This document shows positions 3,293 to 63,647 of a stretch of DNA of 64,000 nt, one piece after another. Under the pieces are notes generated by a model. It was not told where the DNA came from, did no database searches, and was given only the letters and a program-made list of their open reading frames with translations. The translations under genes were made by a program, and so were the position numbers. Numbering within the stretch: the stretch's first letter is position 1; each line of letters opens with the position of its first letter. The stretch is from the NCBI GenBank assembly GCA_964016885.1, contig OZ024742.1, positions 114,452,001 through 114,516,000 of the forward strand, in the 5' to 3' direction. This DNA is from Eledone cirrhosa (taxonomy: Eukaryota).

Positions 3293-3359
3293 TTTTATTA
3301 TGCGCATTTCAAAAACAAACATCATCAAACAATAATATTTGTGTTTTCATCAGATAAAA
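3293..3359 (-). ncRNA. Minimal type I hammerhead (family B, left arm)
   Basis: Reverse complement of the motif at 3468-3534. Confidence 0.75.
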
Positions 3360-3467
3360 CAGGAGAACATGACATGAAGGCTAAAAAAAACACTTGTTGA
3401 TAGTGCAGTTTTAAATCAACTGCACTATCAACAAGTGTTTTTTTAGCCTTCATATCATGTTCTCCTG

Positions 3468-3534
3468 TTTTATCTGATGAAAACACAAATATTATTGTTT
3501 GATGATGTTTGTTTTTGAAATGCGCATAATAAAA
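3468..3534 (+). ncRNA. Minimal type I hammerhead (family B, right arm)
   Basis: TTTTAT CTGATGA [long A/U stem II] GAAA TGCGCA TA ATAAAA: stem I pairs, canonical core, palindromic loop 3. Confidence 0.8.
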
Positions 3535-4097
3535 TATATTGAACTCCTTTAACCATCTTTTGATCTTATATTATGCATACTCCAGTCCCACAAACTGTAG
3601 AGTGCTTCTTATCCGATATCTGCATTGCTTTATTGTACTACAATAAAACTCACCTCCTACATATATATATATATATATATATATATACATATATATATAT
3701 ATATATATATATATATATATATATATATATATATATATAAATATATGCACGTCAATACTCATCTTTTTCCATTTATCTGAGGGGTCTAAACCCCGTTACC
3801 AGGCTAAAATTCCTTTAGTCAGAAATACGGTGAAAGCTATTCTATTTTATAATTTCAAACCTGCTCACTGTTTCAAAACATACTTACTTACCATATAAAT
3901 ATATATATATATATATATATATATATATATATATATATATATATATACATATATATATATATATATATATATATATATATATATATATATATATATATAT
4001 ATATATATATATATATTTATATATATATATATATATATATATATATATATATATATATATATATATATATATATTTATATATATATATATATATAAA

Positions 4098-4289
4098 ATT
4101 AACACAAAAACAGTGATAGTTTTAAAGCTAATCTCTGACTGGTAACCATCTCACTCAACAAACATTAGCTTATATTTTAATATAAACCCAAAATCAGTGT
4201 TTGGGGTGCTAACAATATGTATTATGTGGAAAAGCCAGTTGTATTATTTTATGAGATATAATTAAAGTTAAAATATATCTATCTTTCCA
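4098..4289. repeat. Dispersed repeat fragment, same family as 55190-56685
   Basis: ctggtaaccatctcactcaacaaacatta...gagatataattaaagttaaaatatatct is shared with 55190-55380 and 56179-56365. Confidence 0.85.
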
Positions 4290-4293
4290 TATG

Positions 4294-4376
4294 ACCGCAA
4301 TGGCCGAGGGTTTAAGGCGTTGGACTTGAGTTAAAATGGACAAATGTCCGCGTGGGTTCGAACCCCACCCGTGCTA
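4294..4376 (+). pseudogene. tRNA-Leu(TAA)-derived pseudogene
   Basis: TGGCCGAGGGTTTAAGGCG D-arm, long variable arm GGACA-aa-TGTCC and T-arm GTGGGTTCGAACCCCAC; acceptor and anticodon stems are broken and the anticodon reads TGA. Confidence 0.8.
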
Positions 4377-4420
4377 AATTATATATATATATATATATAT
4401 ATATATATATATATATATAT

Positions 4421-59600: not shown

Positions 59601-60826
59601 TCATACCAAGAATGTATTCACTTTTGTAAGGTATAGGTAAGTTTTAAGTGAAATACCTATATGATGCCTTTCCATATTAATGCCGTATGTCGGTGTGGTT
59701 GCTCAACTGTGTAGGGGGCGATTATTAGGTATAGGATTATCCTGGATGCAGTAATGGTTAATTACTACACTGGATAGAGTTGACGTACGGTGAGAGGTTA
59801 CTCAACGAGTTATGGAAGAATTGTTGAAGAAACTTAGTTCCTGATCCTTCTGTATTCCGGAGTGTAGATAAAGAATGAATAATAACAGGTAGACATCATA
59901 AAAAGGTAATTCATTCTGTGAGCTTACCAATCTTTCAACGGTGGTTATACAGACTAGTTATGCTATGTGCAAATGTATAACTATTTGTAAAACTCAATTA
60001 TCAAATGCTGTGACCACTGTGTCATCAGAGCAGAATGGTTAAAATGTACAATGTAAATACCCTTAAGTGAGGTTATTGGGGAAGATAGAGTAGAAAAGGA
60101 AGAGAGAAAAGAAGGGGAGAGAGAGAGAGAGAGAGAGAGAGAGAGAGAGAGAGAGAGAGAGAGAGAGAGAGAGAGAGAGAGAGAGAGAGATATGCTGGGG
60201 TTGGAGAAATGGGAGAGAGTGGTTTGTAGATATTTTAATCAAAATGTTGTGGTAGTGGTTTTATTATACTAGTTACTCTTAAAGCGACTACCTTGAGCGA
60301 TGCGTTGATAGTCAAAGTTGGAACTATTTATTGCCCCACATAGATATGGAGAGGGGGGAGGGGGACCTAGAGCGAGAGAGAGAGAGATTTGAATGGATAG
60401 AGAGGGAGAGATAGAGAGCGGACAGACGAAAGTTATGGGGTGTGTGTACATTGAGTTCATAGTAGTAATCTACGATTTGCATTAAGTTTCCATTTATAGT
60501 GATTAGCAGGGTATTGTCTTGTAGTGTGGGGGAAGAGAAAGTGGTTAGCTAGAACTCAATGTTATAGTTACGGATTCGAATGTTAAATTATTTTATAGTA
60601 TAACCAGTTTGTGGTTGTAGTATAATGATCGTTCGATTCTATCATTTAGTAATTTATTTTTGGATTTATTATTCATTCTTTATCTACACCCCGGAATACA
60701 GAAGGGTCAGGAACTAAGTATCTTCAATAATTCTTCCATAACTCTTTGAGTAACCTCCCACCGTAGGTCAACGCTATCAGTGTAGTAATTAACCATTACT
60801 GCATCCAGGATAATCCTATACCTAAT
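56700..60826 (-). mobile_element. Full-span Naiad PLE with direct pLTRs (56701-57460 and 59876-60667) and an inverted 5' UTR copy (60666-60826)
   Basis: Frameshifted ORF about 59675 to 57371: HLRWKAF, YGFKS, KADK, LKDHK..KFRLI, FDITMGS, IYRDDGL, CNCHLPEICPL, YYIGST, CRLC; (TA)n flanks. Confidence 0.92.
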
Positions 60827-60904
60827 ATATATATATATATATATATATATATATATATATATATATATATATATATATATATATATATATATATATATAT
60901 ATAA

Positions 60905-61502
60905 GGAAAAAATGAAACGAAATTTCATTTCACACTCTTAGTACGGCTGTTACTTAAATATAAGTATGTACACGTACATACATATATTTATACAGACGTA
61001 CAGTAGTATGTATATATACATACATGCATACATATATATATATATATGTACGTATGGATTCACCGAACATTTATTATAATGCCCGGTGTGTTTGTAAACA
61101 AACATCCCGTATTAAGCCGTAGTGTCTAGCAACCATCGTTGCTCGTTTGTTCAACACTGACAAAGGAACGCTGTACTAGTTTCAAGCTTATTAGCTATCG
61201 TCAGCAACGTAGACCTTCCTGCCAGATTGTTGAACGTATATACTTAACTTATGCATATTAATGTCTGAGTAGCCCAAGTTGCATATCGAGTACAGCGTTC
61301 CTCTGTCAGTGTTGAACAAACGAGCAACGATGTTTGCTAGACACTACGGCTTAATACAGGATGTTTGTCTACAAACACACCAGGCATTATAATAAATGTA
61401 CGGTGAATCCATACGTACATATATATATGTATGCATGTATGTATATATATATACATACTACTGTACGTCTGTATAAATATATGTATGTACATGTACATAC
61501 TT
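60905..61502. mobile_element. Foldback copy of the 430-nt retrozyme (minus arm 60905-61291, plus arm 61289-61502)
   Basis: Left arm is the reverse complement of about 52762-53150; right arm matches about 52877-53095. Confidence 0.88.
61169..61209 (-). ncRNA. Minimal type I hammerhead ribozyme
   Basis: Minus strand CGTTG CTGACGA T AGCT aata AGCT T GAAA CTAG TA CAGCG, with a perfect 4-bp stem II. Confidence 0.85.
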
Positions 61503-61531
61503 ATATATATATATATATATATATATATATA

Positions 61532-63317
61532 TTTCGTTTCTGAATTTGTTTAGCAAGATTCTTTATCTGAAATCGTGTGTTGAAACCGATATTGTTATAC
61601 TTTGGGAGGGTCATGTTGCCAATAAGAAACACACGCACCAGTTGCTTTCACTTCAATTTATTATATATTTATAAATTTATAAATCTACAAACTTATAAAT
61701 TATAAATTTCTGGTTGGTTGGTTGGTTGGTTCCACAACCAGATAGTTGTTTATATATATAGTCATAGTCCTTTCGTCACACACTCTGTGACCTCTTCAGT
61801 GACTGAGGATCCCTTTCTTCATTTCTGTGCCTTTCCTTTCTTCTATCCTACGCCATTTTGTTTCTGTGTGTGTGTTGTGTGCTCAGTTTGCGCATGCGCC
61901 ACATCCGGGTGTCTGTGTGTGTGTGTTCATTTTTCTATTTTTCTATTTGTTTATTTATTTATTTATTTATTGTTGGTTGGTTGTTTGTTCTATGTGTGTG
62001 TGTGTTTTCATTTTGTCCTGTGTGTGTTTTCATTTTGTGTGTGTTTTCAATTGTAAGTTGTTTGTTCTATGTGTGTGTGTGTGTTTTCATTTTGTCCTTA
62101 ATTGTAAGTTGTGATGTTGCTGTTCCACTCATATTTTCTATTTAATTTTGGTTTTAATTCTTTTATGCTTACTGCCTCTGTAATTTGCCTAAACATTGCG
62201 TCTTTTCTGTGTGTGGATTCTATTTTTATTTCTATGCTCTCTAATCTAACCCTGTGTTCTATCTTAGCATGTTGGTAGAGCACAGATGATTCTTTATTAT
62301 CTTGGAGGTCTCGCCAGTGTTCATTTATTCGTTCCCCTATACTACGAGCTGTCTCACCTATGTACACTATATTTTTTGTTTCTACATTGTCCTTCAGTAC
62401 ATCTTATGCTATACACTACATTTCTAGTTTTACAGTTAATATGGGGGCTCATTTTACAGTTAATATGGGGGCTTATTGTAAAATAAGCCCCCATATTAAC
62501 TGTAAAACTAGAAATGTAGTGTATAGCATAAGATGTACTGAAGGACAATGTAGAAACAAAAATATAGTGTACATAGGTGAGACAGCTCGTAGTATAGGGG
62601 AACGAATAAATGAACACTGGCGAGACCTCCAAGATAATAAAGAATCATCTGTGCTCTACCAACATGCTAAGATAGAACACAGGGGTAGATTAGAGAGCAT
62701 AGAAATAAAAATAGAATCCACACACAGAAAAGACGCAATGTTTAGGCAAATTACAGAGGCAGTAAGCATAAAAGAATTAAAACCAAAATTAAATAGAAAA
62801 TATGAGTGGAACAGCAACATCACAACTTACAATTAAGGACAAAATGAAAACACACACACACACATAGAACAAACAACTTACAATTGAAAACACACACAAA
62901 ATGAAAACACACACACACATAGAACAAACAACCAACCAACAATAAATAAATAAATAAATAAACAAATAGAAAAATAGAAAAATGAACACACACACACAGA
63001 CACCCGGATGTGGCGCATGCGCAAACTGAGCACACAACACACACACAGAAACAAAATGGCGTAGGATAGAAGAAAGGAAAGGCACATAAATGAAGAAAGG
63101 GATCCCCAGTCACTGAAGAGGTCAAAGAGTGTGTGACGAAAGGACTATGACTATATATATAAACAACTATCTGGTTGTGGAACCAACCAACCAACCAGAA
63201 ATTTATAATTTATAAGTTTGTAGATTTATAAATTTATAAATATATAATAAATTGAAGTGAAAGCAACTGGTGCGTGTGTTTCTTATTGGCAACATGACCC
63301 TCCCAAAGTATAACAAT
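61532..63317. mobile_element. PLE family A near-perfect palindrome of about 1.8 kb (centre near 62480), with GIY-YIG and pLTR on each arm
   Basis: Arms 61590-62478 and 62483-63317 are reverse complements; HHR-like AGTCA CTGAAGA G GTCACA gagtg TGTGAC GAAA ggac TA TGACT at 61760-61804 (-) and 63108-63152 (+, one mismatch). Confidence 0.93.
62480..62836 (+). pseudogene. PLE GIY-YIG endonuclease fragment (mirror copy at 62098-62480 on the minus strand)
   Basis: INCKTRNVVYSIRC...VYIGETARSIGERINEH...QITEAVSIKELKPKLNRKYEW. Confidence 0.9.
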
Positions 63318-63391
63318 ATATATATATATATATATATATATATATATATATATATATATATATAGAGAGAGAGAGAGAGAGAGAGAGAGAG

Positions 63392-63647
63392 ATGTAGGAG
63401 GTGAGTTTTATTGTAGTACAATAAAGCAATGCAGATATCGGATAAGAAGCACTCTACAGTTTGTAGGACTGGAGTATACATAATATATAAGATCAAAAGA
63501 TGGTCAAAATAGTTCCATGTATTTTATTATGCGCATTTCAAAAACAAATATCATCATGCAATAACATTTGTGTTTTCATCAGATAAAATAGGAAGACATG
63601 ATATGAAGGTTAAAAAACACTTGTGAATAGTGCAGTTTTAAATCAAC
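63392..63647 (-). mobile_element. Family B HHR element, single copy of about 255 bp (HHR at 63522-63588)
   Basis: Homologous to 3252-3660; minus strand TTTTAT CTGATGA...GAAA TGCGCA TA ATAAAA. Confidence 0.85.

What the first reader, a model, noticed from the sequence alone, without database searches (positions are those of the whole stretch)
3293..63588. Community of hammerhead micro-elements with family-specific palindromic loop-3 sequences
Seen: at least eight mutually unrelated (TA)n-inserted families carry type I HHR motifs. Five have self-complementary loop 3, all different: TGCGCA (3521), CAATTG (7169, 29882), CCATGG (28699), CGATCG (32893) and CTAG (52875). Known: minimal HHRs of PLEs and non-LTR retrozymes have a very short stem III and cleave as dimers through a palindromic loop 3. 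Inference: the different palindromes could act as orthogonal self-recognition codes so that only same-family RNAs activate each other.
Basis: partly seen in the sequence, partly recalled or inferred. Interest (0 to 1): 0.75.

Follow-up and report, generated by a model that had tools for sequence, protein, structure and literature searches.

The report
Penelope hammerheads with drifting palindromic loops
These are hammerhead RNA motifs at the tail ends of very abundant jumping genes; their mirror-image loop likely lets two copies of the same element pair up and cut, but unrelated families share the same loop and one family carries several, so the loops are likely not a selected set of private codes.

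Summary
All six cited sites are real type I hammerhead motifs, and such motifs are very abundant: 84 versus 1 control in 1.06 Mb. Several are 3' ends of Penelope-like elements; one family ends an intact Hydra-clade ORF. The CTAG family forms tandem retrozyme-like arrays. The scan found this Hydra identity before on other DNA. Self-pairing is conserved: one family carries CAATTG, CAGTTG (G·U) and CAGCTG (48/14/17 of 100), and G·U-compatible loops outnumber their non-pairing mirror forms 32,057:339 and 1,724:27. This supports the known double-hammerhead model. The code idea fails. CAATTG occurs in three unrelated families inside this window. Loops are shared more, not less, than chance (5 distinct among 8 families). 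An 18,339-match family has no palindrome. Published Hydra families also share loops. In a dimer, stem I also pairs between molecules and by itself separates most same-loop families. Verdict: new members of a known kind, with good covariation evidence for dimers; cleavage untested.

The parts
3261..3657 (.). F1 element: fold-back of two short 3' pieces of a Hydra-clade PLE plus tail, between (TA)n tracts
   Evidence: Self-inverted 3261-3566; 3386-3661 is 94% identical to the last 270 nt of the coding element in L270
3466..3536 (+). F1 hammerhead: stem I 8 bp, CUGAUGA 3474, loop TGCGCA 3521, UA
   Evidence: inverted twin with core at 3353 (-)
63396..63644 (-). Second F1 copy, hammerhead core at 63582, loop TGCGCA
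7133..7181 (+). F2 hammerhead: CCGAAGA core (U4C), loop CAATTG 7169
   Evidence: family pattern 8,969 matches vs 0
29466..29937 (.). F2 fold-back with two hammerheads, loops CAATTG at 29882 (+) and 29521 (-)
27346..28985 (.). F3 fold-back, hammerheads with loop CCATGG at 28699 (+) and 27712 (-); coding partner not found
   Evidence: no EN upstream of 11 copies
32583..33095 (+). F4 fold-back and tail; hammerhead core 32781, 101-nt stem II, loop CGATCG 32893
   Evidence: Hydra-type EN 743-1,144 nt upstream of two other copies
52532..53150 (+). F5 repeat unit, hammerhead core 52850, loop CTAG; elsewhere in tandem arrays of about 420-500 bp
60906..61499 (-). Second F5 copy, core 61204, loop CTAG
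61596..63312 (.). F6 fold-back of a Neptune-type PLE; hammerheads at 63113 (+) and 61799 (-) with the non-palindromic loop GGAC
62477..62836 (+). GIY-YIG endonuclease end of the F6 PLE, 280 nt upstream of its hammerhead
   Evidence: Pfam PF01541 E 7.4e-05, above cutoff
55189..56675 (-). Family J: two same-strand copies, cores 55491 and 56481, long stem II, loop CAATTG (shared with unrelated F2)
   Evidence: other J copies carry CGATCG
4425..4690 (-). Third CAATTG family (cluster 22), decayed core, loop at 4491
   Evidence: aligns with an intact copy in L279
56700..60667 (-). Decayed PLE with RT and GIY-YIG remnants between two direct repeats, each with a decayed long-stem hammerhead (cores near 60028 and 56853)
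33155..33277 (-). F9 hammerhead-like motif, core 33212, loop CCGT (CAGT in most other copies), register uncertain
31857..32554 (-). F10 PLE end: GIY-YIG remnant then decayed hammerhead, core 31898, loop GAAC

Best explanation
These are type I hammerhead motifs at the 3' ends of Penelope-like retroelements and of tandem retrozyme-like repeats; the palindromic loop likely lets two copies of one element pair into a double hammerhead that would cut the RNA, and loops likely differ between families through compensatory drift rather than selection for separate codes. Shown: the motifs, their abundance, their place behind PLE endonuclease genes in several families, conservation of self-pairing, and both sharing and change of loops. 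Inferred: stem III is too weak in a monomer, so two hammerheads swap strands. In that fold stem I also pairs between molecules, so the recognition surface is stem I plus stem III. Partners would normally be the two terminal repeats of one transcript or neighbouring array units, which are same-family by construction. Any self-pairing loop works, and G·U intermediates let it walk from one palindrome to another. Most window copies are solo or inverted stubs and are likely inert.
For: Identity: intact 821-aa ORF with RWT, DKT, CxCx5C, CxxC and CxH upstream of the F1 motif, matching the Hydra definition (PMC8557442 section 11); EN upstream of F4, F6, the CGATTG branch of F2 and the R family. Self-pairing: 18 of 20 multi-copy families seen in position-picked DNA have a fully self-complementary modal loop. 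F2 pattern, first 100 of 8,969 matches: CAATTG 48, CAGCTG 17, CAGTTG 14, CGATTG 14, CGATCG 1, non-pairing 6, CAACTG 0 (counted by eye). The central two bases cannot pair inside a monomer hairpin, so their covariation points to pairing between molecules. TATGTA 32,057 vs mirror TACATA 339; CGATTG 1,724 vs CAATCG 27. Modelled homodimers gain 6-16 kcal/mol over monomer folds for the six palindromic window families. No dispersion: 5 distinct loops among 8 families, 7.6 expected from 64 palindromes (P 0.004), 6.5 from 16 (P 0.15). Published Hydra magnipapillata families: 6 of 14 share CTT-x-AAG, 8 of 14 share stem I ATGG, three share both.
Against: No cleavage data. Copy counts are not independent events; a few founders can make large ratios. 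36 of 84 individual copies in position-picked DNA are not fully self-complementary (15 of the 84 belong to F6). F6 (GAAC 79, GGAC 18, GAGC 2, GACC 1 of 100), CCTCTGG and F9 do not fit the palindrome rule. Unconstrained cofolding gave a full double hammerhead for none of 7 window motifs, although a palindrome-centred helix between the two molecules appeared in six. Only 13 of 84 motifs have a same-strand family neighbour (52 solo, 19 inverted only). No coding partner was found for F3 or F5. F1 and the TATATA/TATGTA families share an 8-bp stem I but differ in loop 3, where loop 3 would discriminate.
Confidence: 0.78

Rival explanations
1. Selected orthogonal code: co-resident families diverge in loop 3 so that only same-family RNAs activate each other in trans.
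For: Mixed stem III helices among the window's four 6-nt families are weak and modelled heterodimers are unfavourable. F1 and the TATATA/TATGTA families share stem I but pair poorly in stem III (-0.1 and +5.7 against -10.5 kcal/mol). CAATTG x CAGCTG within F2 is -2.2 against -6.4 and -11.1.
Against: Sharing of loops by unrelated families, also in the window; under- rather than over-dispersion; 34 of 168 same-length pairs among 24 hand-picked representatives pair fully in stem III. F2 and cluster 22 share the loop and 3-4 bp of stem I. Published Hydra families share both parts.
Confidence: 0.08
2. The motifs cleave as monomers with a 2-bp stem III and a short loop; the palindrome is only a hairpin stem.
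For: 6-nt loops can form 2 bp plus a tetraloop at about 0-2 kcal/mol cost. F6 keeps G15.2-C16.2 but varies the inner purines. PMC7229834 (passages) reports efficient monomer cleavage in most invertebrate retrozymes.
Against: The central pair, unpairable in a monomer, covaries through G·U and mirror forms are rare. CTAG monomers pay 5.4 kcal/mol to close stem III.
Confidence: 0.09
3. The palindrome acts at DNA level, for example as a binding or nicking site for the element's protein, and the RNA fold is secondary.
For: Hammerhead function in PLEs is unsettled (PMC8557442 passages; low in vitro activity in PMC4209133). F2 has a U4C core in 91 of 100 listed matches.
Against: CAGTTG and CAACTG, or TATGTA and TACATA, are the same double-stranded word, yet only the G·U-compatible orientation is common. 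The palindrome sits exactly at A15.1-U16.1.
Confidence: 0.05

Closest known systems
Hydra clade of Penelope-like elements (Craig et al. 2021, PMC8557442; read: passages, section 11, supplement parts 2-3 of 59)
   Same: C-terminal GIY-YIG, DKT, CxCx5C, CxxC and CxH motifs; (TA)n targets; inverted truncated copy plus tail; type I hammerhead near the 3' end with self-complementary stem III; many families per genome
   Different: F1 has RWT for RWK and about 1 kb between EN and hammerhead. Published Hydra loops are mostly odd-length (CTT-x-AAG), here mostly even 6-mers. Some stems II are 50-100 nt.
Minimal and palindromic-helix-III hammerheads of metazoan PLEs (Cervera and de la Pena 2014, PMC4209133; read: main text parts 1-2 of 4, supplement file 2 part 2 of 3)
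   Same: Palindromic positions 15.2-16.2, dimer model, several heterogeneous families per genome, solo and opposite-strand pairs; Aedes families listed with CGCG, GGCC, CGCG
   Different: Longer palindromes and larger copy numbers here; in the parts read, no within-family walk through G·U and no test of cross-family pairing
Non-LTR retrozymes (Cervera and de la Pena 2020, PMC7229834, passages; Li et al. bioRxiv 10.64898/2026.07.22.740005, part 1 of 5)
   Same: CTAG families form tandem arrays without an ORF, one type I hammerhead per unit; U·U at the base of stem II in F5 as in axolotl HHR_Amex2
   Different: Units of about 420-500 bp, F5 units hold an internal TA tract, arrays end in an inverted copy; circular RNA not shown
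PLE hammerheads that cleave as dimers (Lunse, Weinberg and Breaker, PMC5785218; not held, seen only as cited in PMC6765202 and PMC6466107)
   Same: Short palindromic stem III loop, dimer cleavage, tandem arrangement
   Different: Could not check whether mixed dimers were tested there
Neptune-type PLEs (PMC8557442, passages)
   Same: F6 has CX4CxxC before a C-terminal GIY-YIG and inserts in (TA)n
   Different: Its hammerhead loop GAAC/GGAC is not palindromic

Membership tests
Type I hammerhead ribozyme | CUGANGA, GAAA and UH in type I order | tested here: met
   F2 mostly has CCGA (U4C)
Type I hammerhead ribozyme | Stems I and II flanking the core | tested here: met
   stem I 3-8 bp, stem II folds; F1 and F5 lack G10.1-C11.1; base of stem II in J is not closed in the predicted fold
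Type I hammerhead ribozyme | Match to an Rfam hammerhead model | tested here: inconclusive
   none among the 150 best of 191 Rfam matches shown, which were mostly repeat-driven miRNA models
Type I hammerhead ribozyme | Self-cleavage after H17 | not testable with these tools
   needs an assay
Dimer-dependent (double) hammerhead | Self-complementary 15.1-16.1 segment with covarying central pair | tested here: met
   for F1-F5 and relatives
Dimer-dependent (double) hammerhead | Same feature in F6 | tested here: not met
   0 of 100 palindromic; modelled dimer gain only 1.9 kcal/mol
Hydra-clade PLE (F1) | Single ORF, RT then C-terminal GIY-YIG, with DKT, CxCx5C, CxxC, CxH | tested here: met
   821-aa ORF in L270; motifs read by pattern, Pfam gave no significant hit
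Hydra-clade PLE (F1) | RWK motif | tested here: inconclusive
   RWT in F1; RWK in the decayed PLE at 57-60 kb
Hydra-clade PLE (F1) | RT tree placement with published Hydra elements | not tested
   reference proteins were not brought in
Hydra-clade PLE | (TA)n insertion, inverted truncated copy | tested here: met
Neptune-type PLE (F6) | CX2-5CxxC linker before C-terminal GIY-YIG | tested here: met
   CIDKKCIIC in L278; Pfam GIY-YIG; no tree made
Non-LTR retrozyme (F5) | Tandem non-coding units each with a type I hammerhead | tested here: met
   arrays of 5, 7 and 31 units (the 31-unit array is the sister CTAG family)
Non-LTR retrozyme (F5) | Expressed as linear and circular monomers | not testable with these tools
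   needs RNA data
Orthogonal recognition code | One loop per family, not shared, more diverse than chance | tested here: not met

The most novel reading that the evidence does not exclude
Stem I plus loop 3 form a two-part address. Where sister families keep the same stem I (F1 TGCGCA against TATATA/TATGTA; F2 CAATTG against CAGCTG), loop 3 walks through a G·U bridge that pairs with both ends until the end states barely pair. If selection against cross-activation or free-riding drives this, it is molecular speciation of retroelement RNAs caught in progress.
Probability: 0.13. Interest if true: 0.65.

Novelty: new member of a known kind. Interest (0 to 1): 0.35.

Why it matters
The double-hammerhead model for PLE ribozymes rests, in the papers I could read, on weak in vitro cleavage. 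This genome gives comparative support: a base pair that can form only between two molecules covaries through a G·U intermediate inside one family. It also supplies a natural panel of same-loop/different-stem and same-stem/different-loop ribozymes, which makes the specificity question directly testable, and an estimated 200,000 or more motifs (84 per 1.064 Mb scaled to 3.0 Gb). It does not reveal a new kind of system.

Tried and rejected
Rfam scan: no hammerhead model among the matches shown. DNA search of the genome with F1: nothing, because common words are skipped. Run search with F5: no RNA holder listed, so no reads were laid; this says nothing on expression. First flank clustering merged unrelated families through nested insertions and was replaced by core-anchored clustering. 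A frequent CAGCAG match reads by eye as LINE RT coding sequence and was left out. The 14-lineage dispersion test (9 distinct) is biased by loci fetched with CAATTG and C..G patterns, so the 8-family test on position-picked DNA is used; there one tied family was set to CAATTG from a third, decayed copy, and modal loops come from all 256 hits. Pfam did not recognise the Hydra-type ORFs. A pattern for cluster 22 found 1 match, so its size is unknown. Literature searches for heterodimer or orthogonal self-recognition of retroelement hammerheads and for cephalopod PLE hammerheads listed no paper on it; the library lacks most subscription papers. Lunse et al., supplement file 1 of PMC4209133 and the preprint supplements were not seen and may bear on novelty. 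PMC13282606 (passages) has no mention of ribozymes.
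Full report
Observation. The six cited sites are exact. Each lies in a type I arrangement: stem I strand, C(U/C)GANGA, stem II, GAAA, palindrome, UH, stem I strand. With A15.1 and U16.1 the palindromes are 8 nt (6 nt for CTAG). The window lies in a 3.0-Gb genome rich in simple repeats. My scanner found 84 motifs in 1,064 kb picked by position, of which 264 kb are the window and its flanks, against 1 in the reversed sequence. General genome-wide patterns gave 211,143 against 39,507 control for 6-nt loops and 275,321 against 32,923 for 4-nt loops; these two sets overlap. 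The motifs are real and abundant.

What they are. The F1 (TGCGCA) pieces in the window match the last 270 nt of a 4.6-kb insertion at 94%. That insertion lies between TA tracts, starts with an inverted partial copy and holds an intact 821-aa ORF. The ORF has RWT, DKT, YRDD, CxCx5C, CxxC and CxH, the features given for the Hydra clade apart from RWK (PMC8557442 section 11); I made no tree. A similar endonuclease lies upstream of two F4 copies, a CGATTG copy of the F2 group, a TATATA copy and an R-family copy. F6 follows a Pfam GIY-YIG domain by about 200-300 nt and has a Neptune-type linker. F5 and a second CTAG family form arrays of about 420-500-bp units without an ORF, like non-LTR retrozymes. 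No coding partner turned up for F3 (11 copies) or F5. Fold-backs with a tail are the described PLE insertion form. Earlier notes of this scan reached the same Hydra identity on other DNA; I read them after my own tests.

Is self-pairing conserved? Yes. Of 20 multi-copy families seen in position-picked DNA, 18 have a self-complementary modal loop, odd-length ones included; all 11 singletons but one do not, and 36 of 84 single copies do not. With F2 flanks fixed and the loop free, the first 100 of 8,969 matches read CAATTG 48, CAGCTG 17, CAGTTG 14, CGATTG 14, CGATCG 1 and 6 non-pairing (counted by eye). CAATTG, CAGTTG and CAGCTG occur with the same stems I and II. The A·C intermediate CAACTG was not seen. 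The changing pair is the central one, which cannot form inside one strand. With F1-type stem I fixed, 95 of the first 100 matches self-pair: TGCGCA 61, TATGTA 21, TATATA 11, TACGTA 1, TGTGCA 1 (counted by eye). Mirror tests: TATGTA 32,057 against TACATA 339; CGATTG 1,724 against CAATCG 27. DNA mutation would hit both mirror forms alike; only the first can pair as RNA. Copies are not independent, but G·U loops recur in several lineages.

Is it a code? A code needs one loop per family, no sharing and more diversity than chance. All three fail. CAATTG is used by F2, J and cluster 22 in the window and by R and T elsewhere, with no clear similarity between them (z -1.3 to 2.5; related families score 9-23). 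TATATA, CGATCG and CTAG are each shared by two families (the two CTAG families look distantly alike by eye, z 1.2). J carries both CAATTG and CGATCG. Eight families with perfect 6-mers use 5 distinct loops; 7.6, 7.2 or 6.5 are expected from 64, 32 or 16 options (P 0.004, 0.025, 0.15). F6, with 18,339 matches, has no palindrome in 100 listed. Published tables agree: of 14 Hydra magnipapillata families, 6 share CTT-x-AAG, 8 share stem I ATGG and 3 share both; most listed minimal hammerheads of other animals have CG.

Mechanism. Known: a short palindromic helix III favours a dimeric fold (PMC4209133; PMC7229834; PMC6765202). Inferred from topology: if A15.1 of one copy pairs with U16.1 of the other, the strand after H17 also comes from the other copy, so stem I is exchanged too. 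Unrelated families that share an identical loop mostly cross-pair 0-2 bp in stem I; exceptions are F2 with cluster 22 (3-4 bp) and two wobble-compatible pairs at 4-5 bp one way. In a fixed-structure model, homodimers of the six palindromic window motifs gain 6.0-15.9 kcal/mol, F6 1.9, and F2 x J keeps stem III but no stem I. Free folding did not reproduce the full dimer fold, so these energies show feasibility only. Same-family pairing then follows from tandem arrangement and stem I, with no selected code. Loop 3 would decide only between families that share stem I, as F1 with the TATATA/TATGTA group or F2 subfamilies. That is the remaining novel case. Most copies cannot pair in cis: 52 of 84 are solo and 19 have only an inverted neighbour within the stretch held.

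Verdict. New members of known kinds. The useful new observation is the within-family G·U walk of the central pair. My searches listed no paper on it, but the main dimer paper was not available. Cleavage and expression are untested.

Noticed in passing
window 50677-51311 (-), boxes at 50716 and 51271: Direct terminal repeats with GAAA, GUC and CUGAUGA in that order and no GAAA downstream; two more copies in L060. May be the rearranged hammerhead of earlier notes.
   Followed up: partly
window 7138, 29851 (F2): The core is CCGA (U4C) in 91 of the first 100 listed family matches, so it is a family trait, not decay.
   Followed up: partly
window 32781-32900 (F4), 55491 and 56481 (J): Stem II regions of about 95-100 nt; such motifs escape short-gap patterns.
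   Followed up: partly
window 33212 (-), F9: Abundant family with GAAA CAGT TC; neither the loop nor stem I pairs well in the obvious register. Unexplained.
   Followed up: partly
window 7252-7311 and 48109-48214: Short GC-rich fold-back family with GAAAC and CUGAG-like boxes, next to TA tracts; not resolved.
   Followed up: no
L274-L275 (G000:C1:5738326-5752444): 31-unit tandem array of 461-467 bp with one CTAG hammerhead per unit, ending in an inverted copy.
   Followed up: partly
window 14040-21000 (-), 34875-44484 (+), 53103-55170 (+): Several non-LTR RT elements (Pfam RVT_1), including two diverged 3.8-kb copies in tandem.
   Followed up: no
window 5146-6984 (-) and 9862-11965 (-): Decayed Hydra-type PLE bodies; the second is 67-76% identical to the F1 ORF.
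   Followed up: partly
L049, L059, L041, L044, L129: Families with odd or longer loops (CCACTGG, CCTCTGG, CCGATTCGG, CTAATTAG, CAGACTG), closer to the published Hydra pattern.
   Followed up: partly
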